From Patescibacteria group bacterium (lineage in GTDB: Bacteria > Patescibacteriota > JAUYIX01 > JBHPHK01): a stretch of 64,000 bases of DNA. The notes below the pieces were generated by a model, which did not search any database, had not been told where the DNA came from, and worked only from the letters and a program-made list of their open reading frames with translations. The stretch lies in assembly GCA_042569365.1 (NCBI GenBank), contig JBHPHK010000002.1, positions 10,494 through 74,493 on the forward strand, given 5' to 3'. The position numbers were made by a program, and so were the translations under genes. Positions 534 through 29,536 of the stretch are shown here, in pieces (position 1 is the first letter of the stretch; each line of letters starts with the position of its first letter).

Positions 534-534
534 G

Positions 535-1845
535 ATGTTTTTCTATCCGAAGCATGAACATAGAGTCATTGCGCATGTTGATGCGGATGCCTTTTTTGCG
601 TCATGCGAACAGGCGCTTCATCCCGAACTCAAAGGCCGGCCTGTTATCACTGGCAAGGAAAGAGGTATCGTATCTGCGGCTAGTTATGAGGCTAAGGCAT
701 TAGGGATCAAGCGCGGTGTCCCGCTTCAGGACGTCAAGAAAATATGTCCAGACGCCGTTATTTTACCCTCAGATTATGAGAATTATAGCCTCTTTTCTAA
801 GCGTATGTTTGACGTTTTAAGGCGTTATTCACCGTCTGTAGAGGAGTATTCAATAGATGAGGCATTCGTGGACCTAACAGGCCTCAGGCGCCCTCTCAAT
901 AAGACCTATCTCGAGATGGGCCAAACCTTCCAGCAAGACATAGAGAACGAACTGGGGATTACAGTTTCGGTTGGGATTTCGACTTCGAAGGTTTTAGCGA
1001 AGCTTGCCTCTAAGTGGAACAAGCCCAACGGCTTTCTGTATATCTCGCGCCGAGACATCGATCAGTATCTTGGCAAAGTTACGATCGACAAGGTCTGGGG
1101 GATCGGGCCGCAGACTACCAACTTTCTTCTCAAGCAAAACATCAAAACTCCATTGGATTTTATTAAGCGTCCAGAAGAATGGATCCGAAAGAATCTTACT
1201 AAGCCTCATCAAGAGATCTGGGAAGAGCTAAATGGCGACAGTGTCTATAATGTGGAGGCAGAGCTCAAGGAAAAGTACCAGACCATCACCAAAACCAAGA
1301 CTTTCACGCCCGCGACCAGTGACCCGGTCTATGTCTTCGGGCAGCTTTCCAAAAATATAGAAAACGCCTGCATCAAAGCGCGCCGCTACAAACTAGGCAC
1401 CAAGCGCATCAGTATTTTCTTAAAGGACCAGGAATATAACTTCGCCGGAATGCAATCGACCTTAAGTCGGAACACGGCCTATCCAAAAGACATCATGCAG
1501 ATCGCCCGCAAAATGTTTGAACAAGTTTATTGCTCAAGTAAGAGATATAGAGCGACCGGAGTTTTGTTACATGACTTAGATTCATTAGAAAGTTTGCAAC
1601 TCAATTTATTTGAAACTCCGATCCAGGTCAAAAAACAAGAACACATCTTCGAGTCGATCGATGAACTCTCCAAGCGTTTTGGCAAGCACACAGTTTTCCT
1701 AGGTAGTAGTTTTCCGGTCCACACTAAGCCAGATCGTAGATACACAGAGCGTCTCCCACAAAACAACAACGAAAAAATACGCCGCCAAGAGGGCGGACGA
1801 CGTAAATTCATCGGATTGCCGGTATTAGACGTAGAGATTCGCTAA
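535..1845 (+). CDS. dinB: DNA polymerase IV (Y-family translesion polymerase)
   Basis: N-terminus IAHVDADAFFASCEQ, SIDEAFVDLTG, VGISTSKVLAKLASKWNKPNGF. An internal beta-clamp-type motif QLNLF is followed by an extra ~75-aa basic tail. The ATG lies 1 nt after the lexA stop. Confidence 0.9.
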   Translation: MFFYPKHEHRVIAHVDADAFFASCEQALHPELKGRPVITGKERGIVSAASYEAKALGIKRGVPLQDVKKICPDAVILPSDYENYSLFSKRMFDVLRRYSPSVEEYSIDEAFVDLTGLRRPLNKTYLEMGQTFQQDIENELGITVSVGISTSKVLAKLASKWNKPNGFLYISRRDIDQYLGKVTIDKVWGIGPQTTNFLLKQNIKTPLDFIKRPEEWIRKNLTKPHQEIWEELNGDSVYNVEAELKEKYQTITKTKTFTPATSDPVYVFGQLSKNIENACIKARRYKLGTKRISIFLKDQEYNFAGMQSTLSRNTAYPKDIMQIARKMFEQVYCSSKRYRATGVLLHDLDSLESLQLNLFETPIQVKKQEHIFESIDELSKRFGKHTVFLGSSFPVHTKPDRRYTERLPQNNNEKIRRQEGGRRKFIGLPVLDVEIR

Positions 1846-2510
1846 TATTTAATAGGTTTTATTAAATCAGCACTATTATTGCGCGGATTATTGACCGCAT
1901 CCGAGATGGCATGGGTCTCTAGGTTTTTTGTTTTATGCGGACTTAATATTTTCTTGATCACATCATCGGGAGTCTCGAGATCCAGCCAGAGTTCCTCATC
2001 AGCTTTATCTAAAATGGCCGGCATCCTATCATGCACCGGCTTCATGATTATATTTGCGCCGGTAGTAACGAGTGTAAAACTTTCAAGCTTGTGGCCCTGT
2101 TCATTCTCCCAAATATCATAGAGGCCCGCTATAGACATCAGACGATCTAGTTTATCGTGGAAATAATATGGGGTTTTAGCGCCATTTCGTTGCTGCCATT
2201 CATAAAAACCTGTCACAGGCACTAGGCAGCGTTTAGAGCGGTAGGGCTGACGAAAGGCAGGACTGGATTCAATGGTTTCAAAGCGCGCATTTATTGTGCT
2301 GTACTGTGTTTTAGGCTCTTTAGACCAGTGGGGCACCAAGCCCCAAAGCATTGAGTCTGCCACATTCTTGTCATTGTTATCGCGATGCACGATCGGATGT
2401 TTCTGTCCGGGCGTGATATTATAATTCTTCTCAAAATTAATTTCACGCGCAAGTTGATAGCGCTTCGTAAACTCTTCGGGTGATTCAGTTAAGACTATTC
2501 GTCCGCACAT
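1842..2510 (-). CDS. yedK: SOS-response-associated peptidase (SRAP / YedK / HMCES family, abasic-site DNA-protein crosslink protein)
   Basis: MCGR(I) with the catalytic Cys at position 2, WGLVPHW, INARFET, RCLVPVTGFYEW, VHDRMP, and a C-terminal ISDAVNNPRNNSADLIKPI, all matching E. coli YedK. The start was moved to the MCGR Met at 2510 (the track ORF extends to 2537). Its stop overlaps the dinB stop. Confidence 0.85.
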   Translation of the reverse strand: MCGRIVLTESPEEFTKRYQLAREINFEKNYNITPGQKHPIVHRDNNDKNVADSMLWGLVPHWSKEPKTQYSTINARFETIESSPAFRQPYRSKRCLVPVTGFYEWQQRNGAKTPYYFHDKLDRLMSIAGLYDIWENEQGHKLESFTLVTTGANIIMKPVHDRMPAILDKADEELWLDLETPDDVIKKILSPHKTKNLETHAISDAVNNPRNNSADLIKPIKY

Positions 2511-2547
2511 ATATCTATTGTAGCTTTTTTCAGACAAACAAAAAACC

Positions 2548-7688: not shown

Positions 7689-8663
7689 ATGACTACACTT
7701 TCTAACACTCTCAAAAATCAAGTCCTCCAGAGTCTCCTGGCCTTTGTCGTTCTCGTTGCCGGAGGCTTCTTCATATTCGGAAATACGGAAGGGCTCGCCT
7801 ATCAAATCCCGAATTCTTCTCAAGTCTCTATCGTCGACAACGGTTATCTTTTCGGGGTCGAGGCCCAGGATGGCACAGTCGCTGAGCTTCTTACAAACCT
7901 AGGTTATAATATTGCAGATAATGATTTAGTATTTCCGGGTCGTGATGACCGCGTCACGATTGGCACGCGTATTTACATATTTCGTTCCTCGAAAGTGACG
8001 CTAGTAGTTGATGGCAAGTCAACAGAGATCGAGACGCACGCGCGGACTGTTGAAGATCTTTTAAATGAACAAAATATCAAACTAGGAGGTAACGACAAGA
8101 TTGATCCTCCGCTCACCGCGCTCTTGCATGCGCACGACAAGGTTGAAGTGATCCGAGTCAGCACTAAAGAGGTGACCACAGAGGAGGTTGTGGAATTTAC
8201 AACTCAGCATGTCAACGACGACACACTCGCTTTGGGTACGACAAAAGTCAAGCAAGCCGGCAAGAACGGAAAAGTAAAACGAAAATATCTGATCACCTAT
8301 GAAGACGGCAAAGAGGTTGACCGTGAAGTTCTTAAGGAAGAAGTCTTGGAAGAGGCGGTCAAGCAGATCGTCTTGGTCGGAACTAAAATCGAAACAGTTT
8401 ACGGAGGTACAGGTGTTGCCAGCTGGTACTTCGACTACACGAACAGTTATTGTTCTTCCTCATGTGCGGCACACCGCACTTTACCGAAGGGCACGCGCGT
8501 CAAAGTGACCAATACCGCTAACGGTAAAAGCGTAATCGTTACGATCAACGACCGTGGACCGCAAAGTCCAAGTCGCATCATCGATCTGGGCCGAACTCCG
8601 TTCTCAAAGATTGGATCTTTAAGTGCAGGACTGATCACAGTCAGGCTTGATGTGATCCAATAG
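7689..8663 (+). CDS. YabE-like cell-wall protein with DUF348, G5 and RlpA-like double-psi beta-barrel (3D) domains
   Basis: N-terminal TM. G5-like block KVKQAGKNGKVKRKYLITYEDGKEV. The C-terminus ASWYF...CAAHRTLPKGTRVKVTNTANGKSVIVTINDRGP...RIIDL matches the RlpA DPBB. Confidence 0.7.
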   Translation: MTTLSNTLKNQVLQSLLAFVVLVAGGFFIFGNTEGLAYQIPNSSQVSIVDNGYLFGVEAQDGTVAELLTNLGYNIADNDLVFPGRDDRVTIGTRIYIFRSSKVTLVVDGKSTEIETHARTVEDLLNEQNIKLGGNDKIDPPLTALLHAHDKVEVIRVSTKEVTTEEVVEFTTQHVNDDTLALGTTKVKQAGKNGKVKRKYLITYEDGKEVDREVLKEEVLEEAVKQIVLVGTKIETVYGGTGVASWYFDYTNSYCSSSCAAHRTLPKGTRVKVTNTANGKSVIVTINDRGPQSPSRIIDLGRTPFSKIGSLSAGLITVRLDVIQ

Positions 8664-8776: not shown

Positions 8777-10420
8777 TTAGAATGCAACCAAGTAAGTCAC
8801 CAGCCAGAAGGCTCCGGTGACTAAGAAAAACAAAGGCTGATATATTTTAGGCCTTAAGACTAGCATCGCAGCCAAGACTCCAAAGCCAAGTGAAATCAGC
8901 AGCAGAGACTGAGTCTGCAGTAAGAGCGGTACCGACATGAAGGCGATGAAAACGAGCAGGGCAGCGATCCAGCGGGAGTGCTTCGGCCCAAAGATGACCG
9001 GCAAGGTGAGAACTTGCTGAACTGCGTCTCCTTCCTCGTCTCCAAAATCTTTCAAAGGCGCGAGAAGTCCTGCAAAAAGCAAAACCATAACGATGATCAA
9101 TGGCGGGAAGGCGGTAAAGTCGCGCGCCGGACTCAAAAGTAAGAATCCCAAGAAAACTAGAAGCAAAATATTCAGCCCTAAGAAAAACTGAGTGGCGATC
9201 GGCCAGCGCTTGATGCGAAACGGCTGAGCCGAATACAAAATATTAACAAACAGGATCGCCGCCACGGTAAAGGTGAACGAAAATCCGAGAGGATAGACGC
9301 TGACTAAGGCTAGTCCTCCGAACAGCCAGGCTAGAGTTAAGTTTAACTCCGGGGTAATAATTTTTCGGGGGAGAAGGCGTTTGGGATGGCTGAGTTTATC
9401 TCCGCTGTAGTCAAAATGATCGTTAAGATGTTTCGAAAAGCCCCAAGCGCCAAGTGCGCCGATGATCACGCGCAAAGCAGCGGCGATGCCGAAGAAAGAA
9501 TGATCAAACTGGGAGTCTGGAAATACTTTCAGGGCCAGCAAGAATCCTGCGCCGATCGCAAAGAAATAAAGCGCCAGTCTCTGCCAGCGAAAAGTTTTGA
9601 TCAGCTCTTTGAGAATTTTCCATTTATAGATCGCAAACCAGCCGAGCGCCGTTATGCCTAGTAGAGGTAGGAGCACCATAATGATGCGCAAATCAAAACC
9701 CTGCACAGCCTGCATCGTCAACGGTGCGTTCCAAAGCTCTCCAGATCCCATCCAGAAGCCGATAACATTATTAGCGGTGGCCCAGCCCGCTTCTCGCCAA
9801 CCTTGCGTTACGACATATATCAGAGAGGGAAGCGCTGCAAAAAAGAAAGTGACGACATAAAGTAAGACGGTGCCGCCAATTGTCTTCCACCAGTTTTTTG
9901 TTTTGATAGCTAGATAGAGCAGAGCCAGTAGCAGAAACAAGCCGATCTGTACGCGCATGCCCAGAGTGATTCCGAAGTTGACCTCAGTCCCAAAACTAAA
10001 GAAAGACAAAAAGTCTCTCCATAAAGTCGGCCAGCCTTCGAAAAGATAGGCGGTCCGGTAGTTCCCAACACCTTTCGACGCGATAAAATCAACGATTGGC
10101 ACGATCAGCACGACAGACCAGGCGAGTAAGGTCGCACTGGTGATCCGGCGGATCTTCTCGCGCGTGATCAAAGCTACGATCGCACTCACCACCAAAATAA
10201 TAACCGCATACAACAAGGTCGGATGAATAATCGCTCCCAAAAAAGGCACGAAGGTCCGACCGAGCGAAGAAAACTGTTCTAGAAAGATGCGCAGTGCGCT
10301 CAAAGCCACCAGGCTCAAGACGAAAAAGACCAAACCGCCTCTCGGTTTTTCTACAAATTTGATAGCGGCCCTAAGCCAGTCGAGTTTGTTTCGCTGTTTC
10401 ATTATATTTAAGCCTAGCAC
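8777..10420 (-). CDS. Polytopic membrane protein whose C-terminal half is a UbiA-family prenyltransferase, fused to an unknown N-terminal multi-TM domain
   Basis: More than 12 predicted TM helices. UbiA Asp-rich motif 1 NDHFDYSGD (NDxxDxxxD) and motif 2 DFGDEEGD in the C-terminal ~220 aa. Divergently paired with a polyprenyl synthase gene. Confidence 0.55.
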   Translation of the reverse strand: MLGLNIMKQRNKLDWLRAAIKFVEKPRGGLVFFVLSLVALSALRIFLEQFSSLGRTFVPFLGAIIHPTLLYAVIILVVSAIVALITREKIRRITSATLLAWSVVLIVPIVDFIASKGVGNYRTAYLFEGWPTLWRDFLSFFSFGTEVNFGITLGMRVQIGLFLLLALLYLAIKTKNWWKTIGGTVLLYVVTFFFAALPSLIYVVTQGWREAGWATANNVIGFWMGSGELWNAPLTMQAVQGFDLRIIMVLLPLLGITALGWFAIYKWKILKELIKTFRWQRLALYFFAIGAGFLLALKVFPDSQFDHSFFGIAAALRVIIGALGAWGFSKHLNDHFDYSGDKLSHPKRLLPRKIITPELNLTLAWLFGGLALVSVYPLGFSFTFTVAAILFVNILYSAQPFRIKRWPIATQFFLGLNILLLVFLGFLLLSPARDFTAFPPLIIVMVLLFAGLLAPLKDFGDEEGDAVQQVLTLPVIFGPKHSRWIAALLVFIAFMSVPLLLQTQSLLLISLGFGVLAAMLVLRPKIYQPLFFLVTGAFWLVTYLVAF

Positions 10421-10473
10421 GCATACACTTGGGTCGTGAAGTAGACTACGCTAGTATAAGTATATAAGTATTA

Positions 10474-11550
10474 TTGCAAATGCTCGAATTTATCCAAAGT
10501 ATCAAAAAACATCGAAAAGACGTGAATGGTCGCTTGCGACAGCTTTTTCATGAAAAACAAAAGCAGGCTGATCCCGAGCTGAAGCCTACCTATAAGAGAT
10601 TAGAGCGATACACTATGTCGGGCGGCAAGCGCTTAAGGGCTTATTTGGTGAATATGGGCGCTGCTTTTGTCGATAAAGAAATATCTAAAAAGAACTTATT
10701 AGACTTAGGAGCGAGCTTAGAGCTTGGGCACACTGGTATTTTGGTCCATGACGATATTATCGATCGAGATCTTCTGCGGCGCGGGGAGCCGACATTACAT
10801 ATTGCATCCCAAGACTGGCGTAATGACACCAAACGACCTAAAAAGCAGCTTGGATATCTGAATGCCATGACCTGCGGCAATATCCTGGGAGCCTGGGCCA
10901 ACGAAATTTTAATGAACACCGACCTGACTGATTCGCGCAAACTCCTCTTACTAGAGGTGGCAACGCGCACAGGTCTCTTGACGGCGCAGGGGGAGGTTTA
11001 TGATATTCAGCTCGGCGCCGGGAAGCGTCCAGATCTGGATTGGACCGAGCTCCTCGCAATCCAACAGCTCAAGACCGCTCCTTATAGTTTTGAGGGTCCT
11101 TTAGTCTTCGGCGCTCTGGCAGCAGGAGGCTCTAAAGCCGCCTTCGAGGCTTTAGCAGAGTATTCAAACTTAGTAGGATCTGCTTTCCAGTTGCAGGATG
11201 ATATTCTAGGAATCCAAGGCAATAAGGGCAACCAAAAAATAGGCAAAACGCCCGCTGCAGACCTGCGGGAAGGCAAGTTAACGCCTCTTATCAAAATCGC
11301 AATGCAGGAAAGCGGCCAAGCCGGAAAGAAAAAACTCACTCAGCTTCTCGAAAAGCCATCGCGCAACAGCGCGGACATAAATCAAATGAAGCGAGTGATC
11401 GAAAATAGCAATGCCTATGACATTGTTGCCGATGTGGCGGGTAAAAAAGTGAAGTTAGCAGAGAAATGGACAAGACAGAATATAACAGACCAAGAGACGC
11501 GCGCATTATTTACTGCCGTGGCTCGGTTTGTCTTAAATAGAAAGTTCTAA
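10474..11550 (+). CDS. Trans-polyprenyl diphosphate synthase (FPP/GGPP/long-chain type)
   Basis: First DDxxD motif LVHDDIIDRD and second FQLQDDILG. The overall size is that of an IspA/IspB fold. Confidence 0.85.
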   Translation: MQMLEFIQSIKKHRKDVNGRLRQLFHEKQKQADPELKPTYKRLERYTMSGGKRLRAYLVNMGAAFVDKEISKKNLLDLGASLELGHTGILVHDDIIDRDLLRRGEPTLHIASQDWRNDTKRPKKQLGYLNAMTCGNILGAWANEILMNTDLTDSRKLLLLEVATRTGLLTAQGEVYDIQLGAGKRPDLDWTELLAIQQLKTAPYSFEGPLVFGALAAGGSKAAFEALAEYSNLVGSAFQLQDDILGIQGNKGNQKIGKTPAADLREGKLTPLIKIAMQESGQAGKKKLTQLLEKPSRNSADINQMKRVIENSNAYDIVADVAGKKVKLAEKWTRQNITDQETRALFTAVARFVLNRKF

Positions 11551-12446
11551 TGCCGACGAAGCAAGCCGTATTTAATACAAAACGTCTCCCAAATCTCACA
11601 GACCCTGGAACGATAAAAGAATTGATGAGGATTTTTCGCATAGTACCGCGCAGAAGCCGTGGTCAAAATTTTATTATTAACTCATCAGCGCTAGATAAGA
11701 TAACCCGTGCCGCTAGTTTATCGCGGGAAGACCTGGTGATCGAGATTGGGCCGGGACTGGGAGCTCTTACGGCAGAATTAATCCAAAAAGCCGGCAAGGT
11801 GACGGCAATCGAAATCGATCCGAAGCTTTACGCCATTTTGCAGCAGACTTTCGCGCGGTGGCCGTTCGATAATCTTAATTTCATAAATGAAGACGCGCTG
11901 ACTTTCGATATTGGCTCATTAGCACAACGCTCTATTGATCAATCTTCCGAATTAAAGCAATACAAGATAGTCGCGAATCTTCCGTATTCCATCACAGGGA
12001 GAATGATTCGCAGGATTTTAGAAGCAAAACCAGGTCCGCATTCCATAGTGTTGTTAGTTCAAAAGGAGGTAGCGGAAAGAATGGTAGCCAATCCGCCAAA
12101 GATGAGTATTTTGGGAGTTGCCGTGCAAACATACGGAAAGGCGGAAATTATCAGTACAGTAAAACCTGGCAGCTTTATGCCAAAACCTAACGTAAATTCG
12201 GCTATAATCCGCGTTAAAATGCATAAAAGGCCGTTATTTGGCGATTTAGACAGTAAAAAGTACTTTAAAGTAGTAAAAGCAGGTTTTTCCCAAAAAAGAA
12301 AAACGCTGTCTAACGCACTTTCAGGGGGTTTAGCGCAGGATAAGAAGGAAATAGAGAATAAGTTAAAAAGTATCAATATTGATCCTTCTGTGAGAGCGCA
12401 ACATCTGAAAATTGAGGAATGGGTAAGAATTGCAGAGGCACTCTAG
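11550..12446 (+). CDS. rsmA: 16S rRNA (adenine1518/1519-N6)-dimethyltransferase
   Basis: GQNFIINSSALDKI and the SAM motif EIGPGLGALT, followed by NLPYSIT. Confidence 0.9.
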   Translation: MPTKQAVFNTKRLPNLTDPGTIKELMRIFRIVPRRSRGQNFIINSSALDKITRAASLSREDLVIEIGPGLGALTAELIQKAGKVTAIEIDPKLYAILQQTFARWPFDNLNFINEDALTFDIGSLAQRSIDQSSELKQYKIVANLPYSITGRMIRRILEAKPGPHSIVLLVQKEVAERMVANPPKMSILGVAVQTYGKAEIISTVKPGSFMPKPNVNSAIIRVKMHKRPLFGDLDSKKYFKVVKAGFSQKRKTLSNALSGGLAQDKKEIENKLKSINIDPSVRAQHLKIEEWVRIAEAL

Positions 12447-12746: not shown

Positions 12747-13754
12747 ATGACTAAAACGGATTTGAAAAAAACTTTCCCCACAACCATTTCCAAAAATATT
12801 TCATCTACAGAATCTTGGAAGATTGTTTTTGTTTTGATCGGAATCGCAGTCGTTAGTGTATCTGCAATTCAAATCATCAGAAAACAAATCGGGAGCATTG
12901 ATCCTGGCTCCATTGCGGCACAGATCAAGCCGGCGGAAGGAATTGAAAGCGTATCCGATCTCGACACTGATGGTGACGGTCTTTTTGACGCTAAAGAAGA
13001 GCATCTCGGAACAAATCCCCATAACAGTGATACAGATAACGATGGCTTCACTGACGGTGAAGAGATTTTCAACGGATACAATCCTTTATCTGCTGCAATA
13101 GATGGCAGCCAACAGAATTCAGTGAAGATTTTCGGCGAACCACGGGTGATGTATGAAAATATGCAGCCAACAATGACGAGCGCATCCGCAACTTCTGAAG
13201 CGCAGGCGGGAGTCGGAGGTTTAGGTGGTGAGGATGAGGTGATATTAGATAGCGGAGCGATCTCAGATATGTTGCGTCAGGTAAATACGCTAACTAATTA
13301 TTCGATGCCTGATATTAGCGGCATCCCAATCAATATCACGCAGACTTCCGGTAAAACACCAGTCGAGAACTATATGTACGACGTATTGGGCATATTTTCA
13401 CGCTGGGCTCCTTTTGATGACGAGGTAGATATTTCGAACTTTATTGCAGAGGTACAGCAGGGTAATTATGCGCGCGTCGGCGGAGTCATTGAAGCAAAAG
13501 AAGAAGGCCTGAAGGAATTAGCCGAGATTGAAGTTCCTGAAGAAATGTACGATCTGCACACTCAAGGACTGAAGCTCTTAATTGGCGGTAGCAATTCCTT
13601 GATTGCTTTACAGGGAGTAGGTGGTGCTGGCGGTGAAGAGGAGACGATGACACTCTTTTCTCAGATCCAGTATCTTGTAGACCAGACACAGTCATTAGTG
13701 ACAAATATTTCAGCAATAAGTCGAAATTACGACTTGCCATTTGTCTTTGAATAA
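12747..13754 (+). CDS. Membrane-anchored secreted protein with bacterial TSP3-type calcium-binding repeats
   Basis: N-terminal TM (IVFVLIGIAVVSVSAI). DLDTDGDGLFDAKEEHLGTNPHNSDTDNDGFTDGEE. First gene of the co-directional operon. Confidence 0.6.
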   Translation: MTKTDLKKTFPTTISKNISSTESWKIVFVLIGIAVVSVSAIQIIRKQIGSIDPGSIAAQIKPAEGIESVSDLDTDGDGLFDAKEEHLGTNPHNSDTDNDGFTDGEEIFNGYNPLSAAIDGSQQNSVKIFGEPRVMYENMQPTMTSASATSEAQAGVGGLGGEDEVILDSGAISDMLRQVNTLTNYSMPDISGIPINITQTSGKTPVENYMYDVLGIFSRWAPFDDEVDISNFIAEVQQGNYARVGGVIEAKEEGLKELAEIEVPEEMYDLHTQGLKLLIGGSNSLIALQGVGGAGGEEETMTLFSQIQYLVDQTQSLVTNISAISRNYDLPFVFE

Positions 13755-13760
13755 AATAAA

Positions 13761-14828
13761 ATGCACAAATTTTCCCACAAAATCATCGCAGCAATAATCG
13801 TAGTTGGCTTAGCAGCTATAATGTTTGCGCCGCTTAGCGTCAATCGCCAGCGCGCAAACGAAACTTCTCCTTTCCTGCAACCAGCTGTTGCTGATGCGAT
13901 GTGGGGCATGGACGCTGGCATTAAGATTGCTTGGGAAACAGCCTGGAGAGATTATATTCGCGTAAAATTGATCGATCTTGGTAAGTTTTTAAAGCTTCAA
14001 GCTACGATCAAGTTGATCCAGAAGGCTCTTGATGAAACTGAGCTCGGAGGAATGGTGCGGAATTATCGAAGTTTTATTTTCGACGATCTTGCTGATAAAG
14101 CTTTAGATACAATTGATGTTTATTTCGACGACTATCTGCCGGACACTGTAAGTCCCAATGTGAAACGCACAGCAAAAGCAATCGTTAATAACGAGATCCG
14201 GAGTGTAGACGGCATGATTAACACTTTAGGTACGCAGAGCGTTACATCAAACAAACAAGTAAGCACTTCTCAATCCTCAACATCATCGACCGCCCTACTA
14301 AATAATTCCGAGCAAAATTTTTCTCAGAAAACTGTGGCGTGGGTGAAGACATTTTTCAAAGCTCAGTTCGTAGGAACTAAAGCATTATCGCCAAATAACC
14401 CATTGATCGCTTTTGCGTATAATCCGGTACCAACTCAGTGGAAGAATAGTTTCTCTAATTTCAACCAGTTTATAGATAGCGTTGTTCAGTGTAATGGAAG
14501 CGAAACATGTAACGATTCGTTGGCTGCATTGAAGGCAGTTGATAAAGGTATGAAGGAATATAATGCTAGTCAATTATCAGAGACTATACGTACCTTGGTC
14601 TTGAGTGGATACAATACAGAACGAGATAAGGATGGTAATGAAACGCAATGGCCGGGCTTAGCAAAAGCTATGCTCGAGGGTAATGTTCAGCAATTCGCAA
14701 CTATCATTTCAAACTCAGAAGACTACACACCTTCACCAGTCACAACGATGATCGGTGCTTTCATAATCAACTACGTTTTCAATAGTCATGATAATTGGGA
14801 CTCTCTTAATCAACAACGTTTTCAATAA
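13761..14828 (+). CDS. Hypothetical membrane-anchored extracellular protein
   Basis: N-terminal TM (IIAAIIVVGLAAIMFAPL) and a Ser/Thr-rich segment. Starts 7 nt after the previous gene. Confidence 0.5.
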   Translation: MHKFSHKIIAAIIVVGLAAIMFAPLSVNRQRANETSPFLQPAVADAMWGMDAGIKIAWETAWRDYIRVKLIDLGKFLKLQATIKLIQKALDETELGGMVRNYRSFIFDDLADKALDTIDVYFDDYLPDTVSPNVKRTAKAIVNNEIRSVDGMINTLGTQSVTSNKQVSTSQSSTSSTALLNNSEQNFSQKTVAWVKTFFKAQFVGTKALSPNNPLIAFAYNPVPTQWKNSFSNFNQFIDSVVQCNGSETCNDSLAALKAVDKGMKEYNASQLSETIRTLVLSGYNTERDKDGNETQWPGLAKAMLEGNVQQFATIISNSEDYTPSPVTTMIGAFIINYVFNSHDNWDSLNQQRFQ

Positions 14829-14860
14829 TTACGTAAACTAGATCTTTTTAAAAATAAGAT

Positions 14861-15403
14861 TTGCTTATGGCAGATACACCAAAAAGTTCATCCAAGAGAA
14901 TTGATGGAGTATCAAGAACCCCAGCTTCGCTTATTCCACGGAAAAGAAAAGTCATAACCCCGGCAGCGGGTTTAGCTGAACAGCCAATTCCTGAAAATAT
15001 TGAAGAGGAAGAAGAGCAGGATTCAATGGATTTTCCTGGTGGCGCTTTTCCATCCCAAGAACGAGCTGAAGAAAAAGCAGATGAAGAAGAGCCGAAGTCT
15101 ACTGAAGATATTGAGCAGGAACGCGCCCGAAATCTTGCGAAAGAAATGAAAAAAGATAGAGCCAAAGCAATGAAGCAGGCAAAAACTCAGGCTAAGGCGG
15201 CGGGTAAGAAGGCGGCAAAGGCGGCGGGTAAGAAGGTGGCAAAAAAAGTCGCGAAGCAGGCAGTGATGAAAGCAGTACAGGCGGTCGCCGCAGCTATTGC
15301 TCCAGAAGCACTGGCAATCATTGGAATAATTGTAGTAGTCATTATTGTTATCATATTAATTTTCGTTTATGGTTGCGATTTACTTCCTTGGATATGTAGT
15401 TAA
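14861..15403 (+). CDS. Tail-anchored, highly charged protein with an acidic block and a histone-H1-like AKKAAK repeat
   Basis: An EEEEEQD block, then AKAAGKKAAKAAGKKVAKKVAKQ (encoded by a 24-nt tandem DNA repeat at 15194-15241), then a C-terminal TM IIGIIVVVIIVIILIFVYG. Confidence 0.5.
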   Translation: MLMADTPKSSSKRIDGVSRTPASLIPRKRKVITPAAGLAEQPIPENIEEEEEQDSMDFPGGAFPSQERAEEKADEEEPKSTEDIEQERARNLAKEMKKDRAKAMKQAKTQAKAAGKKAAKAAGKKVAKKVAKQAVMKAVQAVAAAIAPEALAIIGIIVVVIIVIILIFVYGCDLLPWICS

Positions 15404-15417
15404 ACAATAAAAAATTC

Positions 15418-17217
15418 GTGAAAAAAATAAACACTCTAACATTTAAAAATATAAAAGAAAAAATTCGTAAGAACGAAGTTTTGCTTACGATCGGATTGAT
15501 ACTTGCGGTTGTTGCAATTGTTATCTTTGTGGTGCCATCGGGGGCCTATGCTGCTGGATTTGCAGAGTCTTTAGGTCTCTGGGTATTCCGCATTATTGCA
15601 TTTATGCTCCAGCTCTATGTAGCGCTTCTAGCGATTCTGATCGCCTTTATGTCTGTTATTTTTGACTGGGTAGCGGGATTTGGCGTCTTTAGTCAGGGAA
15701 CGATTAACGAAGGATTGCTGCGCGGCTGGACGCTGTTGGTGAACGTCGCAAACCTGGTCTTCATTTTAATATTGCTGTTTATCGGTATCGCAACAATATT
15801 CCGCGTCGAACAATTTTCAATTCGTCGCTTGTTTGTGCGCGTTATCGTGGCTGTTTTGCTAATAAATTTCAGCTTCTTCTTCACAAAGATTATCACTAAT
15901 GGCGCGGATACGATTCAAAATATTTTCACCAATGGCGCAGTTGTTTTTCCTGAGTGTAGAGAGGCGGGTGTTCCGATCAGCTGTACGATAGGAAACCTGG
16001 TCGGTATCGGAGATTTGAACTGGGAATCGTCTGTAGGAGGACAAATGGAAATTTTTGATACTCTCATGGCGACAGATAGTACCGACGCAGCACTTGATGT
16101 GGCTATTAAGTCTGCCTTTATGATGGTATTCTTTTCTATCTTCTTGTTTGCTATCGCTATAGTTACCATTCTACTCTTGGTGCGTATGGTGGTCTTATGG
16201 ATCCTGGCTACCATTTCGCCATTTGCCTATGTTGCTATGATTTTGCCGAGTACTCGACCGTACTCTAGCCAATGGTGGAATGCGTTATTCCGGTGGGCTC
16301 TGCTTGGTCCGCTGACTTTGATTTTGATAAACGTGGGGATTTTGGTTATGACGCCAATGCAAGTTGTCGTTGATAATATGCCTGGCGGCAATATAAATGT
16401 TGGTCTCTCACAGGTTGTATTAAATGGAGTGCAGGGGCTAGGACTTTTGATTGTGGCCTCAATCTTTATGATAGGTTCGTTGATGGTGGCGCGTCAGATG
16501 GGCGGTTCCATCGCGGGCGCAATCGTAAACAATGCCAATAAAGGAGCAAAGAATCTTGGAAAATGGGCCGGAGGAAAGGCTTCGGGCGCAGTTCTCGGCA
16601 GGAAGGACTCCAAGACAGGCAAGCGCACTGGCGGCTTGATTCGTCGCGCGCCTGGATTGAAGCAGGCTTCTCAAGCTCTTGAAGGACGCGCCAAGGCAAG
16701 ACAGCAAGCCGGCTTGTCACGCGAAAAAGATTACCAAAAAGGAGTTACAGCTAAGACGGGTAAGTATCGCAAGAAAGCAATTTTGGGCGGCAAACACTTT
16801 GATGAAACAGCAGATCCTGAATATAAAAAACGCATCAGTGAGGGAATTAAAGAAAATAAGGATCCAGGCAATTATGTAAGCGCAGAACACCAGTACGCAA
16901 TAATGGACCAGGCTATTAAAGATGGAGATAAAGAAAAAGCAATGATTGCCCATGGATCAATTGGTGCCAATAAAGATATGACTACCAGAAATGATGTTCG
17001 GGGAAATGATTTTAGAGCTGCTACAGATAGGATGCAGGCGGCAGGTTTTATAGATGAAAAACAAGCAGTTGGACATAAGAACGTTGCGCGCAAAGATTCT
17101 CAGAAACGCATTGAAAAGATGCGTGAAAAGAAGGGAAAAGAGGGTAAGAAGAAGCCAGGTAAGACTTATGTGGATGAGTTTGGTGTTAAACGAGATGAAG
17201 AAGGCAATGCAGTTTAA
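15418..17217 (+). CDS. VirB6/TrbL-like polytopic membrane protein of the T4SS
   Basis: ~8 TM helices in the first ~380 aa, then a ~220-aa Lys-rich hydrophilic tail. Its position next to VirB3/VirB4 homologues is typical for VirB6. Confidence 0.5.
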   Translation: MKKINTLTFKNIKEKIRKNEVLLTIGLILAVVAIVIFVVPSGAYAAGFAESLGLWVFRIIAFMLQLYVALLAILIAFMSVIFDWVAGFGVFSQGTINEGLLRGWTLLVNVANLVFILILLFIGIATIFRVEQFSIRRLFVRVIVAVLLINFSFFFTKIITNGADTIQNIFTNGAVVFPECREAGVPISCTIGNLVGIGDLNWESSVGGQMEIFDTLMATDSTDAALDVAIKSAFMMVFFSIFLFAIAIVTILLLVRMVVLWILATISPFAYVAMILPSTRPYSSQWWNALFRWALLGPLTLILINVGILVMTPMQVVVDNMPGGNINVGLSQVVLNGVQGLGLLIVASIFMIGSLMVARQMGGSIAGAIVNNANKGAKNLGKWAGGKASGAVLGRKDSKTGKRTGGLIRRAPGLKQASQALEGRAKARQQAGLSREKDYQKGVTAKTGKYRKKAILGGKHFDETADPEYKKRISEGIKENKDPGNYVSAEHQYAIMDQAIKDGDKEKAMIAHGSIGANKDMTTRNDVRGNDFRAATDRMQAAGFIDEKQAVGHKNVARKDSQKRIEKMREKKGKEGKKKPGKTYVDEFGVKRDEEGNAV

Positions 17218-17246
17218 GAATCAAAAATATTAAGTTAGATTAATTT

Positions 17247-18659
17247 ATGCCAGAAATAACAGAACAAGATAAAGAGTTTGTTAAGTCGCTTACGCTGGAA
17301 CGCGCTAAAGACCCCGGCACTTTAGATTTATTGAAAAATCGGGCTATGTTTTTTTGGGAGGAAGATTCTCTAAGTGCCCGAATATTCGCCAGTCTCTTAG
17401 AAGATAAGTTTAATAACCAAGATATGCTTGACTTGCGTCAAGACGCAGTTTTATATCAGAAATATCAGGATCTTATCCTTGAAATGCGAGCAAAAGTTAT
17501 TGGTATTTTGAAACTTGAAGAGCAACAAGAGATTTTGCGCAATAATTTTCTGTCAGCTTATCAAAGTAATAAGAATATTTATGAAGATATAATTGAAAGT
17601 TTTGATTATTATGATGAAGACTTTGCCTTAGTAGAAGCAGAAAAAATTACAAGTGCTTTGAATAATAATCAAGAAACAATCGGAACAGAAAATATTGTAA
17701 TAGCAGGTGATACAAAGCCAGTAAGCCCGCAAATCAAATTCTGGATCAAGGATTTCAATAAATTTGCTGGAGGCATGCAAGTATCCACCGAAAAAATATC
17801 TGAATACTTCAGGCAAAACGATAATGTTCGCAAGCTTGACGAGGGAGAGAAGGAAATACTATCCACTATTATTAAAATAGTTAATAGCATGAAGCCTCCT
17901 CAGATAATAACGGGAGATTTGGCCATAGCTGGTGAGTCTCCAGAGAGAGCGGCTGAATTACAGAAGCTTATTAGTAAGAAGGCCGTTGCTCAATCTGAGC
18001 AAGCTCAGGTTTTAGCTTCTGCTGCGCCAGAGGATGTATTGGAGCCAACGGATGAGGAGATACAAGGACGGCCGCAAGCTACGGGACCAGCAGTAAATCC
18101 GTTAGCGGGACAGCCGAGTGTGGCTATACCTAAACCACCGGCACCTGCTCCGACAGCTACTTTGGCACCTGCGGGCCAAACTTTAGCAGCTCCTATTCCA
18201 AGCGAGCTGACTAAGCCTAAAAAAGGATTCTTTGGTCGTCGAAAAAAACAAAATCACGGAGGTTTGCAGATCCAAGATAGTCCTGCGATACAAAGCGCTG
18301 GTCGTAAGGTTGTGTCACCTCAGCCGACAGTTGCTCAACCTGTTACCGCTCAGCCGACACTAGAAAATAGCCTGCAAACAACTTCTGAGAATGCGATCAA
18401 GGCGTACCCTCAAGGCGGAGTGGAATATATCAATCAATTAAACTCGTCCGTTCAGGCTCGTATACAAGCAGATGCTGCGGCAAAAAATAATTTGGCCAAC
18501 AACTGGAAGCAAAGTCCACTTTATCAAAAATATCTTCAGGTAGGACAGGCAAGTATGCAATCTGGTCGCCCAATTCAAGAGGTCTTGCAGGAAAGTGGTA
18601 GTCAATTAACTCTTGAAGAATTTGAAAAAATTACTGCACTTAGTAAGGCGCTTAGCTAA
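17247..18659 (+). CDS. Hypothetical protein with a Pro/Ala-rich linker, T4SS-operon associated
   Basis: No TM segment. Low-complexity stretch PKPPAPAPTATLAPAGQTLAAPIPS. Unknown globular N- and C-terminal parts. Confidence 0.45.
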   Translation: MPEITEQDKEFVKSLTLERAKDPGTLDLLKNRAMFFWEEDSLSARIFASLLEDKFNNQDMLDLRQDAVLYQKYQDLILEMRAKVIGILKLEEQQEILRNNFLSAYQSNKNIYEDIIESFDYYDEDFALVEAEKITSALNNNQETIGTENIVIAGDTKPVSPQIKFWIKDFNKFAGGMQVSTEKISEYFRQNDNVRKLDEGEKEILSTIIKIVNSMKPPQIITGDLAIAGESPERAAELQKLISKKAVAQSEQAQVLASAAPEDVLEPTDEEIQGRPQATGPAVNPLAGQPSVAIPKPPAPAPTATLAPAGQTLAAPIPSELTKPKKGFFGRRKKQNHGGLQIQDSPAIQSAGRKVVSPQPTVAQPVTAQPTLENSLQTTSENAIKAYPQGGVEYINQLNSSVQARIQADAAAKNNLANNWKQSPLYQKYLQVGQASMQSGRPIQEVLQESGSQLTLEEFEKITALSKALS

Positions 18660-18664
18660 TTAAT

Positions 18665-19129
18665 ATGCAATACGAAGTTCCACAATTTATCGAAGTTGAA
18701 GATAAAATTATCGGGCCTTTTACTATTCGCCAGTTCTTGACGATGGTCGTAGGTGCAGTGGCTTTGGCAATACTTTATTTTATGCTTCCGATGATCGCGT
18801 TTATTATCATGGGCATCCCGGTCGTGGTATTTGTGGGAGCATTGGGTTTCTTAAAAATCAATGGACGTCCTTTCTATTTTTTCTTAGCACATTTAACAGG
18901 ATATATTTACCATCCGCGGTTGAGGGTGTGGCGCAGAGACCCAACTCTTCCAGCAGTTAAAGCGAAACAGTCTGACAAGGAAACATTAGAGGCACAAGAA
19001 CGTAAAACTAAGAAACTTCCACGGACAGGCATTGAGCGTTTATCATATATTCTCGATCACGCATCTACGGAAAGCTCAGTATATACAGAGGTGGCTGAAG
19101 AAAAAATCCGCCGCGGTGAAGTTGAATAA
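18665..19129 (+). CDS. VirB3/PrgI-family small membrane protein of the T4SS
   Basis: YEVPQFIEVEDKIIGPFTIRQFL followed by two TM helices. Lies immediately upstream of VirB4, as in Gram-positive conjugation loci. Confidence 0.5.
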   Translation: MQYEVPQFIEVEDKIIGPFTIRQFLTMVVGAVALAILYFMLPMIAFIIMGIPVVVFVGALGFLKINGRPFYFFLAHLTGYIYHPRLRVWRRDPTLPAVKAKQSDKETLEAQERKTKKLPRTGIERLSYILDHASTESSVYTEVAEEKIRRGEVE

Positions 19130-19141
19130 TAATTATTTTTT

Positions 19142-19867
19142 ATGGCAAAGAAAAACACAACACCATTAGTACAGACGATGCAGAGTTCAGGTTTAGCAAA
19201 TAGACCAGGCCAAAAGCAGAGTACTCAGATGTATCTGGATGTCCAAGAGATCCGTGAAGGTACGGTTGTCTTAAAGGATGGCGCATTAAGATCTGTTCTG
19301 TTGGTATCCAGTATGAACTTTGCTCTGAAGTCTTATGAAGAGCAGGAAGCTATAATTCTTGGCTATCAGGGTTTCTTGAACTCTTTGGATTTCCCGATTC
19401 AGATAGTTATGCAATCCCGTGTCTTAGACATTACTGAATACATCGCGAAGCTAGCAGAGCTTGAAAAACAACAATCCAACGAGCTGTTGCGCATCCAAAC
19501 CGCTTCCTACGGAGAATATATTGGTGAGCTTGTGAAGATCTCCAATATCATGAATAAGAACTTTTATATAGTGGTTTCGTTTTCTCCAGTTGGCGCCAAG
19601 AAGGATTCATTTTTTGGTCGTCTCGGTAAGATTATGAATCCAACGCGCGTCATTAAGCAGGAGGCGCAAAAATTTGCCGAATATAAAAGCCAGTTAGAGC
19701 AACGAGTAATGCAAGTGCAGGGAGGACTAGGAGCAGTTGGACTGAAATCGTTAGCCTTAGGAACCCAGGAATTAATCGAGCTGCTTTATCAAAGTTATAA
19801 CACCGAAAATGTTGGGCAAAAGAGCCTGCCAGATATCGGTGAATTAGATTTAGATCAGACAAGCTAA
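19142..19867 (+). CDS. VirB4/TraC-family N-terminal domain, encoded as a separate ORF
   Basis: LDVQEIREGTVVLKDGALRSVLLVSSMNFALKSYEEQEAIILGYQGFLNSLDFPIQI resembles the CagE/TrbE/VirB N-terminal region. Stops 5 nt before the VirB4 ATPase ORF, which is in a different frame. Confidence 0.5.
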   Translation: MAKKNTTPLVQTMQSSGLANRPGQKQSTQMYLDVQEIREGTVVLKDGALRSVLLVSSMNFALKSYEEQEAIILGYQGFLNSLDFPIQIVMQSRVLDITEYIAKLAELEKQQSNELLRIQTASYGEYIGELVKISNIMNKNFYIVVSFSPVGAKKDSFFGRLGKIMNPTRVIKQEAQKFAEYKSQLEQRVMQVQGGLGAVGLKSLALGTQELIELLYQSYNTENVGQKSLPDIGELDLDQTS

Positions 19868-19872
19868 AATAT

Positions 19873-26380: not shown

Positions 26381-26386
26381 ATCCAT

Positions 26387-28384: not shown

Positions 28385-28388
28385 CCAC

Positions 28389-29525: not shown

Positions 29526-29536
29526 ATTATTAAAAT

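What the first reader, a model, noticed from the sequence alone, without database searches (positions are those of the whole stretch)
8777..11550. UbiA-family prenyltransferase fused to a second polytopic domain, divergently paired with a polyprenyl diphosphate synthase
The 547-aa membrane protein carries both UbiA Asp-rich motifs (NDHFDYSGD and DFGDEEGD) in its C-terminal half, while the N-terminal ~320 aa form a separate 8-TM domain of unknown function. The divergent neighbour has both DDxxD motifs of a trans-isoprenyl diphosphate synthase. Together they form a self-contained donor-plus-transferase pair. In an organism expected to lack quinone or de novo lipid pathways, the acceptor and the role of the fused domain are open questions. 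Candidates include a lipid carrier, prenylated cell-wall precursor synthesis as with the DPPR synthase, or ether lipids.
Basis: partly seen in the sequence, partly recalled or inferred. Interest (0 to 1): 0.55.

Follow-up and report, generated by a model that had tools for sequence, protein, structure and literature searches.

The report
UbiA prenyltransferase with unknown six-helix domain
A Patescibacteria (CPR) membrane protein joins a complete, intact UbiA prenyltransferase resembling archaeal-lipid and chlorophyll synthases to a strongly conserved six-helix domain that matches nothing known, and this fusion is a widespread uncharacterised family, while its pairing with a prenyl-diphosphate synthase is a local exception.

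Summary
Both ORFs are real. ORF 8777-10420(-), 547 aa, has a UbiA domain at aa ~276-547 (Pfam E 3e-23). All three catalytic motifs are intact and the 9-helix fold is complete. ORF 10474-11550(+) is a trans-isoprenyl diphosphate synthase (E 3e-47).

- The extra N-terminal domain is ~270 aa with 6 TM helices, not ~320 aa with 8.
- The synthase's second motif is DDILG, not DDxxD.

The N-domain is not extra UbiA helices (hhalign probability 0.6%). It has no match in Pfam, NCBIfam or PDB. Seven of its residues are about as invariant as the catalytic aspartates, and its conserved polar residues sit in the outer-leaflet half of the membrane.

The fusion is a family: 517 cluster representatives, and all 90 scanned carry UbiA. 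It is mostly found in Moranbacteria and Parcubacteria. The gene is monocistronic, at a fixed position beside ksgA and a yabE-like gene.

The synthase is adjacent in only 1 of 80 related loci. In this window it is translationally coupled to ksgA.

The UbiA domain groups with the C20-donor enzymes (ChlG, homogentisate phytyltransferase, DGGGPS). It does not group with MenA, UbiA or DPPR synthase, and it meets no equivalog cutoff.

Best reading: a two-module isoprenoid-lipid enzyme whose acceptor is unknown. It is a new variant of a known kind, of moderate interest.

The parts
8777..10420 (-). Whole gene: 547-aa, 15-TM fusion protein (GTG start; the alternative ATG start at 10402 gives the 541 aa annotated by NCBI)
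9596..10420 (-). N-terminal domain, aa 1-275. It has an amphipathic helix at 12-24, then 6 TM helices and a short linker helix at 267-275. No match in Pfam, NCBIfam or PDB.
   Evidence: hhalign against the UbiA domain gives probability 0.6%.
10268..10294 (-). N-domain TM1 outer-half motif LRIFLEQFS. R44 is conserved in 98% and E48 in 94% of the family.
9947..10099 (-). N-domain conserved core. It runs from the outer end of TM3 (PIVDF; P108 and D111 at 98%), through the 36-aa external loop (G117, G119, Y125 at 98%, TFFG), to the outer end of TM4 (GITxGxRxE; G154 at 99%). The window has Q158 where 80% of members have E.
8777..9595 (-). Complete 9-TM UbiA prenyltransferase domain, aa 276-547
   Evidence: Pfam E 3e-23. 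PDB profile search: 6M31 1.2e-27, 9SAU 4e-23, 4TQ3 8e-22. Foldseek aligns ~280-290 columns to 280-290-residue targets.
9398..9424 (-). UbiA motif 1, NDHFDYSGD (N333, D337, D341), on a cytoplasmic loop
   Evidence: Motif definition from PMC9385802.
9206..9235 (-). UbiA motif 2, YSAQPFRIKR (Y396-x5-R402)
9026..9049 (-). UbiA motif 3, DFGDEEGD (D458, D461, D465). The window has G460 where 93% of members have K.
10421..10473 (.). AT-rich divergent intergenic spacer containing TATAAGTATATAAGTAT. It is shared by the UbiA-fusion gene and the IPPS-ksgA operon.
   Evidence: one promoter-like match on the - strand; this is only a consensus scan
10474..11550 (+). trans-Isoprenyl diphosphate synthase, 358 aa. 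FARM is DDIID (nt 10750-10764) and SARM is DDILG (nt 11197-11211). Gly88 and Ile89 occupy positions -5 and -4. Its stop overlaps the ksgA ATG.
11550..12446 (+). ksgA (RrnaAD), a conserved neighbour of the fusion gene. It is context, not part of the system.
   Evidence: within 6 kb in 72 of 80 loci
7689..8663 (+). YabE-like G5/DUF348/DPBB cell-wall protein, a conserved neighbour convergent with the fusion gene. It is context.
   Evidence: within 6 kb in 67 of 80 loci

Best explanation
The gene encodes a 15-helix, two-module integral-membrane enzyme from a widespread, uncharacterised family.

Module 2 (aa ~276-547) is a complete UbiA prenyltransferase with all catalytic motifs present. It belongs to the branch holding chlorophyll synthase, homogentisate phytyltransferase and DGGGPS. 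Its Asp-rich loops face the cytoplasm. I infer that it transfers an all-trans C20-class prenyl group (GGPP or a similar donor) from its diphosphate onto an acceptor that is still unknown. In this genome the donor is most plausibly made by the head-to-head GGPPS-type synthase.

Module 1 (aa 1-275) is a six-helix domain found only in front of a UbiA or UbiA-like domain. Its invariant polar residues (R44, E48, H66, D111, Y125, R156/E158, Y188) lie in the outer-leaflet half of the membrane. I infer that it acts on the isoprenoid lipid made or bound by module 2 at the outer face, either as a second head-group reaction or as a translocation or hand-over step.

Shown: the domain limits, the fold, motif integrity, the topology pattern, the family, the synteny and the taxonomy. 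Inferred: donor chain length, acceptor class and the role of the N-domain.
For: Domain structure:
- The UbiA domain is significant and complete, with motifs 1-3 present.
- The AF2 full-length model has pLDDT 93.1 and pTM 0.91, indicating one compact assembly.

Family placement:
- Of 90 members, 90 hit ChlG, 89 hit homogentisate phytyltransferase, and 85 and 81 hit the two DGGGPS models.
- Only 13 hit MenA, 4 hit UbiA, 2 hit CtaB and 2 hit DPPRS.
- The IPPS's best solved relative is C. glutamicum GGPPS 3LK5 (2.5e-29). It has no aromatic residue at -5 or -4 before the FARM.

N-domain:
- R44, P108, D111, Y125, G154, Y188 and P198 are conserved at 98% or more, about as strongly as the catalytic Asp residues.
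- K+R counts place the N-terminus, L2-3, L4-5 and the linker in the cytoplasm. L1-2, L3-4 and L5-6 are outside.
- The exhaustive search with the N-domain gives 517 representatives, mostly 490-560 aa with the domain at the N-terminus. All 90 members scanned carry PF01040.
- The N-domain persists where the UbiA-like part has lost its Asp motifs (P0016, P0006).

Isoprenoid-linked contexts elsewhere:
- A CrtC/AttH lipocalin fusion (P0029).
- An HTTM/VKGC fusion (P0075).
- An operon with a second UbiA and a squalene-hopene-cyclase-like toroid protein (L004/L005).
Against: - No acceptor is identified, and every NCBIfam equivalog cutoff is missed by a wide margin (64 vs 313 bits, 43 vs 296).
The clustering of N-domain residues, and any tunnel to the UbiA portal, rests on helix positions and the positive-inside pattern only.
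- The IPPS pairing occurs in only 2 of 81 genomes, so donor supply by the neighbour is a local inference.
- The gene is monocistronic and flanked by housekeeping genes. Context therefore gives no pathway partner.
- The window protein departs from the family consensus at K460G, P349L and E158Q, so it could be functionally shifted.
- No MEP, MVA or PcrB genes were seen among the window ORFs scanned with Pfam. Several long ORFs of the 15418-28384 block, 44745-49409 and most ORFs beyond 57400 were not scanned.
Confidence: 0.5

Rival explanations
1. It is a true bacterial DGGGP synthase. It would add a second geranylgeranyl chain to (hepta)prenylglyceryl phosphate, giving archaeal-type diether lipid in a lipid-auxotrophic CPR cell. 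The N-domain would serve a following step.
For: - DGGGPS 6M31 is the best solved relative by profile (1.2e-27) and by Foldseek.
- Motifs N-Dx3D, Yx5(K/R) and Dx2Dx3D match those defined for MjDGGGPS.
- PMC7852524 reports GGGPS and DGGGPS homologues together in a Parcubacteria genome.
- A GGPPS-type neighbour is present.
Against: - DGGGPS equivalog scores are far below cutoff: 43 vs 296 and 36 vs 353 bits.
- ChlG and homogentisate phytyltransferase models score as well or better across the family.
- No PcrB/GGGPS or G1P dehydrogenase was found among the annotated window ORFs or in the 80 flanks.
- Canonical DGGGPS has no such N-domain.
Confidence: 0.15
2. The N-domain has no activity of its own. 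It is a membrane scaffold or oligomerisation module for an otherwise ordinary UbiA enzyme.
For: - There is no detectable homology to any enzyme or transporter.
- It is always attached to a UbiA-type domain.
Against: - Seven residues are conserved at 98% or more, and the conserved polar residues of the domain sit in the outer halves of TM1-4.
- The domain is retained, with these residues, when the UbiA motifs are lost.
Confidence: 0.17
3. It prenylates an aromatic or quinone-type head group, in the manner of homogentisate phytyltransferase, MenA or UbiA. The product would be a small redox or antioxidant lipid.
For: - 89 of 90 members hit the homogentisate phytyltransferase model.
- One family member is fused to an HTTM and vitamin-K-carboxylase lumenal domain (P0075).
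Against: - MenA, UbiA and MqnP models are hit by only 3-13 of 90 members, and weakly.
- Patescibacteria generally lack respiratory chains and quinone pathways (general knowledge). No ring-precursor genes were seen in the window.
Confidence: 0.08
4. It modifies a polyprenyl or carotenoid-type chain by elongation plus hydration or cyclisation. This would resemble the UbiA-type lycopene elongases LyeJ and CrtEb with their partner membrane proteins.
For: - One member carries a C-terminal CrtC/AttH hydratase-type lipocalin (P0029).
- The L004/L005 operon has a squalene-hopene-cyclase-like protein beside an N-domain protein.
Against: - No Lycopene_cyc, CruF or Caroten_synth Pfam match appears even at E <= 5.
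- The N-domain has no internal 3+3 repeat.
- No carotenoid genes are nearby. These fusions are rare members found outside the CPR.
Confidence: 0.06
5. It is a DPPR-synthase-like enzyme making a polyprenyl-phosphate-linked sugar for cell-wall synthesis, one of the first reader's candidates.
For: - The gene is a conserved neighbour of a cell-wall gene (yabE-like).
- UbiA-fold similarity to 8J8J is detectable.
Against: - 8J8J is the weakest UbiA match: E 1.5e-7, covering profile positions 254-410 only.
- Only 2 of 90 members touch the DPPRS model.
- The neighbours lie on the opposite strand, so there is no operon.
Confidence: 0.04

Closest known systems
Archaeal digeranylgeranylglyceryl phosphate synthase (DGGGPS, UbiA superfamily; PDB 6M31)
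   Same: - A complete 9-TM UbiA fold.
- Motifs N-Dx3D, Yx5(K/R) and Dx2Dx3D on cytoplasmic loops.
- It is the best profile match (1.2e-27) and the best Foldseek match.
   Different: - The window protein has an extra 275-aa 6-TM N-terminal domain.
- It scores 43 and 36 bits against equivalog cutoffs of 296 and 353.
- The host is a bacterium (CPR).
- No GGGPS partner was seen.
Chlorophyll synthase ChlG/BchG and homogentisate phytyltransferase (C20 phytyl/GG-diphosphate-using UbiA enzymes)
   Same: - ChlG is the top NCBIfam hit for the window protein.
- ChlG is hit by 90 of 90 family members and homogentisate phytyltransferase by 89 of 90.
- The motif spacing is the same.
   Different: - Scores are far below cutoff (64 vs 313 bits).
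- No tetrapyrrole or homogentisate metabolism is expected in Patescibacteria.
- The N-domain is absent from these families.
Decaprenyl-phosphate phosphoribosyltransferase (DPPR synthase, Rv3806c; PDB 8J8J)
   Same: UbiA fold, and a possible cell-envelope role.
   Different: It is the weakest and only partial similarity (E 1.5e-7). Only 2 of 90 members touch the model.
Other UbiA-family enzymes coupled to a second polytopic protein: heme O synthase CtaB with heme A synthase CtaA, and lycopene elongase CrtEb with CrtYe/Yf (recalled from general knowledge)
   Same: The general logic of a UbiA-type enzyme coupled to a second membrane module that acts on the same lipid.
   Different: - No COX15/CtaA or lycopene-cyclase Pfam match was found.
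- The CtaB model is hit by 2 of 90 members.
- The N-domain has no internal repeat.
Actinobacterial-type short/medium-chain trans-IPPS (C. glutamicum GGPPS 3LK5; M. tuberculosis FPPS 8F8F), for the neighbouring gene
   Same: - PF00348 match.
- FARM is DDxxD without an insertion.
- SARM has the DDxxG form.
- An insertion follows the RRG.
   Different: - All NCBIfam equivalog cutoffs are missed; the best is 162 bits against 450.
- Positions -5 and -4 are Gly and Ile, whereas 8F8F has Trp at -5. The product length is unproven.

Membership tests
UbiA prenyltransferase superfamily (PF01040) | Profile score above Pfam's gathering cutoff | tested here: met
   82.8 bits against 34.2, E 3e-23, aa 292-522
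UbiA prenyltransferase superfamily (PF01040) | Asp-rich motif 1 (NDxxDxxxD), motif 2 (Yx5K/R) and motif 3 (DxxDxxxD) | tested here: met
   N333/D337/D341, Y396...R402 and D458/D461/D465 are present and 97-100% conserved in the family. Motifs as defined in PMC9385802.
UbiA prenyltransferase superfamily (PF01040) | Complete nine-helix fold with the Asp loops on the cytoplasmic side | tested here: met
   AF2 places helices from 279 to 546. Foldseek aligns 280-290 columns to full-length 6M31, 4TQ4 and 4OD4. K+R is enriched on the motif loops.
DGGGP synthase (NCBIfam NF009521 / NF009522 equivalogs) | Score at or above the curated cutoff | tested here: not met
   43.2 vs 296 bits and 36 vs 353 bits
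DGGGP synthase (NCBIfam NF009521 / NF009522 equivalogs) | GGGPS/PcrB and G1P dehydrogenase present in the same genome | tested here: inconclusive
   None was found among the window ORFs scanned with Pfam (roughly 37 of the 53 ORFs of at least 150 aa) or in 80 x 12-kb flanks. The whole genome could not be searched.
DGGGP synthase (NCBIfam NF009521 / NF009522 equivalogs) | GGPP:GGGP geranylgeranyl transfer activity | not testable with these tools
   Requires a biochemical assay
Chlorophyll synthase ChlG/BchG | Score at or above the curated cutoff | tested here: not met
   64.3 vs 313 bits and 52.3 vs 212.3 bits
DPPR synthase (decaprenyl-phosphate phosphoribosyltransferase) | Closest similarity to DPPRS rather than to other UbiA clades | tested here: not met
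   8J8J gives E 1.5e-7 and is partial, against 1.2e-27 for DGGGPS. The NF008978 model is hit by 2 of 90 members.
MenA / UbiA (quinone ring prenyltransferases) | Match to the MenA, UbiA or MqnP models | tested here: not met
   The window protein has no hit. TIGR01475 ubiA_other scores 24 bits against 180.8. Only 3-13 of 90 family members hit these models.
trans-Isoprenyl diphosphate synthase (PF00348), for the neighbouring gene | Profile score above cutoff, and a FARM of the form DDxxD | tested here: met
   161.3 bits against 27. DDIID at aa 93-97.
trans-Isoprenyl diphosphate synthase (PF00348), for the neighbouring gene | Canonical second DDxxD motif | tested here: not met
   The motif is DDILG at aa 242-246. 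The enzymes 3LK5 and 8F8F have the same variant, so it is compatible with function.
N-terminal domain: any described family | Significant match in Pfam, NCBIfam, PDB sequences or PDB folds | tested here: not met
   - Pfam: no consistent hit at E <= 5 in 30 members.
- NCBIfam: none.
- PDB profile search: none at E <= 10.
- Foldseek best is E 0.096 with TM-score 0.27.

The most novel reading that the evidence does not exclude
The N-domain would be a previously undescribed class of outer-leaflet-facing module that processes or translocates isoprenoid lipid. Fused to a DGGGPS/ChlG-like prenyltransferase, it would form a self-contained machine that makes an isoprenoid lipid and then exports or modifies it. 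This would give lipid-auxotrophic CPR bacteria an endogenous isoprenoid membrane lipid or envelope anchor, possibly ether-type. It would be core to Moranbacteria and Parcubacteria and also present in FCB-group bacteria and Omnitrophota.
Probability: 0.15. Interest if true: 0.8.

Novelty: new variant of a known kind. Interest (0 to 1): 0.52.

Why it matters
Patescibacteria are thought to scavenge their membrane lipids and to keep isoprenoid synthesis mainly for the peptidoglycan carrier.

This gene is conserved and apparently core to part of the group. It joins a C20-type UbiA prenyltransferase to an unknown but strongly conserved membrane domain. That points to an unrecognised isoprenoid-lipid product in their envelope.

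The N-domain has at least 517 cluster representatives and a high-confidence fold model, yet no match in Pfam, NCBIfam or PDB. It is a well-defined target for assigning a function to a new membrane domain.

The result also corrects the tempting 'donor plus transferase operon' reading. The synthase pairing is a local rearrangement, not a feature of the family.

Tried and rejected
- The word-indexed homology searches were nearly blind to this family, giving 4, 2 and 6 hits. The exhaustive phmmer search was what revealed it.
A1 worked.
- The top hit there, the NosY ABC-2 permease (E 0.096, TM-score 0.27), is rejected as not significant. Weaker ABCG, MlaE and Wzm hits are rejected too. I judged the loop pattern different from memory of those folds: the large external loop is between TM3 and TM4 here.
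- The idea that the N-half is a degenerate UbiA duplicate is rejected: hhalign probability 0.6%.
- An internal 3+3 repeat, as in lycopene cyclases, is rejected: probability 0.6%.
- CtaA, CarS, CDP-alcohol phosphatidyltransferase, CPBP/Rce1, VanZ/Lipocone, GT-C and O-antigen ligase were considered from memory for the N-domain. None is supported by the Pfam or PDB searches; there was a single O-antigen_lig hit at E 0.014 in 1 of 30 members.
- The Lipocone paper mentions operons linking UbiA with a YfiM-type Lipocone domain, but not this fusion.
- Short N-domain hits (180-350 aa) look like fragments from short contigs rather than stand-alone proteins.
- P0156 and P0157 (538 aa, between an M50 peptidase gene and rpsL) match only 10-15% of the query. 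They were set aside as a different family.
- P0001 could not be looked up for its own contig.
- Literature searches found no description of this fusion.
Full report
**Observation.**
The window holds ORF 8777..10420(-), 547 aa, and the divergent ORF 10474..11550(+), 358 aa.
- Pfam places a UbiA domain at aa 292-522 of the first ORF (E 3e-23, 82.8 bits, cutoff 34.2).
- It places a polyprenyl synthetase domain over nearly the whole of the second (E 3.3e-47).
- The quoted motifs are present. NDHFDYSGD is at aa 333-341 and DFGDEEGD at aa 458-465. The synthase has DDIID at aa 93-97.
- An identical protein is recorded by NCBI as 'UbiA family prenyltransferase [Patescibacteria group bacterium]'. It is 541 aa, starts at the ATG at 10402, and lies on an 86.8-kb contig.

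Two details were misread by the first stage.
- The synthase's second motif is DDILG, not DDxxD. Its closest solved relatives have the same form.
- The extra domain is smaller than stated, as shown next.

**Anatomy.**
An AlphaFold2 model built on a 90-sequence family alignment is very confident (mean pLDDT 93.1, pTM 0.91).
- It shows an N-terminal amphipathic helix at 12-24.
- Six TM helices follow (30-51, 61-86, 90-114, 153-174, 177-206, 238-265). Two short helices lie in the 3-4 and 5-6 loops.
- A linker helix at 267-275 leads into a nine-helix bundle from 279 to 546.

The family profile aligns positions ~256-527 to residues 20-275 of the 283-residue DGGGPS chain. Foldseek aligns 280-290 columns to full-length DGGGPS, AfUbiA and ApUbiA. 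The UbiA fold is therefore complete on its own, and the additional domain is ~275 aa with 6 TM helices.

Profile-profile comparison of the two halves gives probability 0.6%. The two halves of the N-domain are likewise unrelated to each other.

**The N-domain is unknown but real.**
It has no detectable relative in any library searched.
- Pfam gives no consistent hit, even at E <= 5, over 30 members.
- NCBIfam gives none.
- PDB sequences give none with the family profile at E <= 10.
- A separate N-domain model (pLDDT 88, pTM 0.87) has no Foldseek match in PDB better than E 0.096 with TM-score 0.27.

Its conservation is striking. R44, P108, D111, Y125, G154, Y188 and P198 are each conserved at 98% or more. 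E48 is at 94%, G150 at 90% and H66 at 86%. The catalytic N333, D337, D341, D458, D461 and D465 lie in the same range.

K+R counts over the 90 sequences fix the topology.
- The N-terminus, loops 2-3 and 4-5, and the linker are cytoplasmic.
- So are the UbiA Asp-motif loops, as in solved UbiA structures.
- Loops 1-2, 3-4 (36 aa, conserved) and 5-6 are external.
- The conserved polar residues therefore sit in the outer halves of TM1-TM4 and in the external 3-4 loop.

**It is a family.**
Word-indexed searches found only three other full-length relatives.

An exhaustive phmmer search with aa 1-272 found many more.
- 517 cluster representatives have E <= 1e-3, and 82 have E <= 1e-10.
- Most are 490-560 aa with the domain at the N-terminus.
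- All 90 members that were aligned carry PF01040.

Variants were also found.
- N-domain + UbiA + TPR.
- N-domain + degenerate UbiA-like region without Asp motifs + TPR (P0016). A similar protein has no TPR (P0006).
- N-domain + UbiA + CrtC/AttH lipocalin (P0029).
- HTTM + VKGC-lumenal + N-domain + UbiA (P0075).
- P0006 lies in an operon with another UbiA gene and a squalene-hopene-cyclase-like alpha/alpha-toroid protein.

Short hits look like fragments. The N-domain therefore always travels with a UbiA-type domain, and the rarer contexts are also isoprenoid-related.

**Genomic context.**
A scan of GTDB species genomes returned 80 loci. Most are Moranbacteria, Parcubacteria, Paceibacteria or unclassified Patescibacteria. 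Single loci come from Omnitrophota, Verrucomicrobiia and a few other groups.

| Gene within 6 kb of the fusion | Loci (of 80) |
|---|---|
| ksgA | 72 |
| yabE-like G5/DPBB gene | 67 |
| polyprenyl synthase | 1 (L006) |

L006 has the same gene order as the window.

The usual arrangement has the fusion gene alone on its strand. On one side is a block containing a TSP3-repeat protein gene. On the other is ksgA-yabE-yabE, followed by two small conserved genes that I did not scan but that look, from their sequences, like a signal peptidase II and a DksA/TraR-type zinc-finger protein.

In the window the synthase stop overlaps the ksgA start (TAATG). The synthase therefore belongs to the ksgA operon and shares only a 53-77 bp AT-rich divergent spacer with the fusion gene.

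The 'donor-plus-transferase pair' is thus a lineage-specific juxtaposition. It is plausible functionally, but it does not define the family.

**Which UbiA?**
The window protein's NCBIfam hits are ChlG (64 bits), an archaeal prenyltransferase model (55), BchG, DGGGPS (43 and 36) and homogentisate phytyltransferase (35). All are far below their cutoffs.

| NCBIfam model | Family members hitting it (of 90) |
|---|---|
| ChlG | 90 |
| Homogentisate phytyltransferase | 89 |
| DGGGPS (two models) | 85 and 81 |
| MenA | 13 |
| UbiA | 4 |
| CtaB | 2 |
| DPPR synthase | 2 |

Against PDB the family profile ranks the solved structures as follows:

| Structure | E-value |
|---|---|
| DGGGPS 6M31 | 1.2e-27 |
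| Chlorophyll synthase | 4e-23 |
| AfUbiA | 8e-22 |
| ApUbiA | 7e-14 |
| UBIAD1 | 3e-8 |
| DPPR synthase 8J8J | 1.5e-7 (partial) |

The three motifs defined for MjDGGGPS (N62/D66/D70, Y125-x5-K130, D180/D183/D187; PMC9385802) all have counterparts here.

The domain therefore belongs to the branch whose characterised members use C20 donors (GGPP or phytyl-PP). It is not a member of any defined equivalog. The acceptor cannot be read from sequence.

**The synthase.**
- Its best solved relatives are C. glutamicum GGPPS 3LK5 (2.5e-29) and a mycobacterial FPP synthase, 8F8F.
- Positions -5 and -4 before the FARM are Gly88 and Ile89. 8F8F has Trp at -5.
- By the established chain-length rule, a bulky residue at -5 or -4 limits the product to C15 or C20. 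That rule predicts a product of at least C20 here. This is an inference.
- No MEP, MVA or PcrB genes appear among the window ORFs that were scanned. The rest of the genome could not be searched.

**Explanation and rivals.**
Best reading (confidence ~0.5 overall):
- The anatomy is well established; the mechanism is much less certain.
- The protein is a two-module isoprenoid-lipid enzyme.
- A cytoplasm-facing C20-type prenyl transfer is coupled to an outer-leaflet-facing module. That module processes or translocates the lipid.

Rivals:
- True DGGGPS making ether lipid (0.15).
- N-domain as a mere scaffold (0.17).
- Aromatic or quinone prenylation (0.08).
- Polyprenyl or carotenoid elongation with hydration or cyclisation (0.06).
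- DPPR-synthase-like carrier synthesis (0.04).

**Novelty and verdict.**
No paper describing this fusion was found.

It is a new variant of a known kind: a UbiA prenyltransferase with a novel, obligately attached membrane domain that is widespread in the CPR. Interest is moderate (0.52).
- Function is not resolved.
- The 'self-contained pair' idea is weakened.

Noticed in passing
window 12747-30721 (+): A long co-directional block follows ksgA. It holds a TSP3-repeat protein (12747-13754), a PrgI-family protein (18665-19129), a T4SS_pilin-domain protein (28347-29525) and many large ORFs without Pfam hits. It looks like a type IV secretion or conjugation-like system. Its first genes (clusters c7, c8, c5, c9) are syntenic with the UbiA-fusion gene across Moranbacteria loci.
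   Followed up: partly
window 50264-56897 (+): A type IV pilus cluster: PilM, PilN, PilO, a T2SSE ATPase (53503-55380) and a T2SSF platform protein (55800-56897).
   Followed up: no
window 36-2537: An SOS/translesion module: an S24 LexA-like peptidase (36-533), a Y-family polymerase with IMS domains (535-1845) and an SRAP abasic-site peptidase (1842-2537, - strand).
   Followed up: no
window 44745-49409 (+): A 1554-aa ORF. It follows two ORFs (41705-42994, 42994-44733) that have no Pfam match. It was not analysed.
   Followed up: no
L007, L012, L013 and ~20 other loci: About 24 MAGs are labelled 'uncultured Bdellovibrionales' (TPA_asm). They show the same gene order around the fusion gene as Moranbacteria loci (c9-c5-c8-c7 | U | ksgA-yabE...). 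The taxonomic labels are probably wrong.
   Followed up: partly
P0016, P0015, P0041, P0062, P0086, P0115, P0141; P0006 in L004:2449-3657: These proteins keep the N-domain, but no significant UbiA match was found in them. Most carry C-terminal TPR repeats. hhalign of P0016 and P0006 shows a UbiA-like region that has lost the Asp-rich motifs; the others were not aligned. They may be pseudo-enzyme or receptor versions of the family.
   Followed up: partly
P0075 (L093:2062-5178) and P0029 (L091:881-3274): Two rare fusions were seen. One joins an HTTM and vitamin-K-carboxylase lumenal domain in front of the N-domain + UbiA. The other adds a CrtC/AttH lipocalin after UbiA. Both extra domains would be extracytoplasmic by topology.
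   Followed up: partly
L002:9341-13451 and L090:2-3921: In WOR-3/FCB-type contigs the fusion gene lies beside a ~600-aa FG-GAP repeat protein. A ~180-aa protein without a Pfam hit on record also lies nearby in both contigs. The trio may be conserved; homology of the small protein between the two contigs was not tested.
   Followed up: no
L086/L088:8001-9617: 538-aa proteins (P0156, P0157) have no Pfam domain and only weak similarity to the query (10-15% coverage). They sit between a short M50 peptidase gene and rpsL in a ribosomal-protein region. They are probably a different family.
   Followed up: partly
window 10421-10473: The divergent spacer contains the AT-rich direct repeat TATAAGTATATAAGTAT. 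The start codons of both flanking genes are ambiguous: GTG at 10420 or ATG at 10402, and TTG at 10474 or ATG at 10480.
   Followed up: partly
window 39900-41439 (-); L001:6060-7625: A LemA and M48 peptidase gene pair lies directly upstream of the fusion gene in L001. In the window the same pair lies 30 kb away.
   Followed up: no
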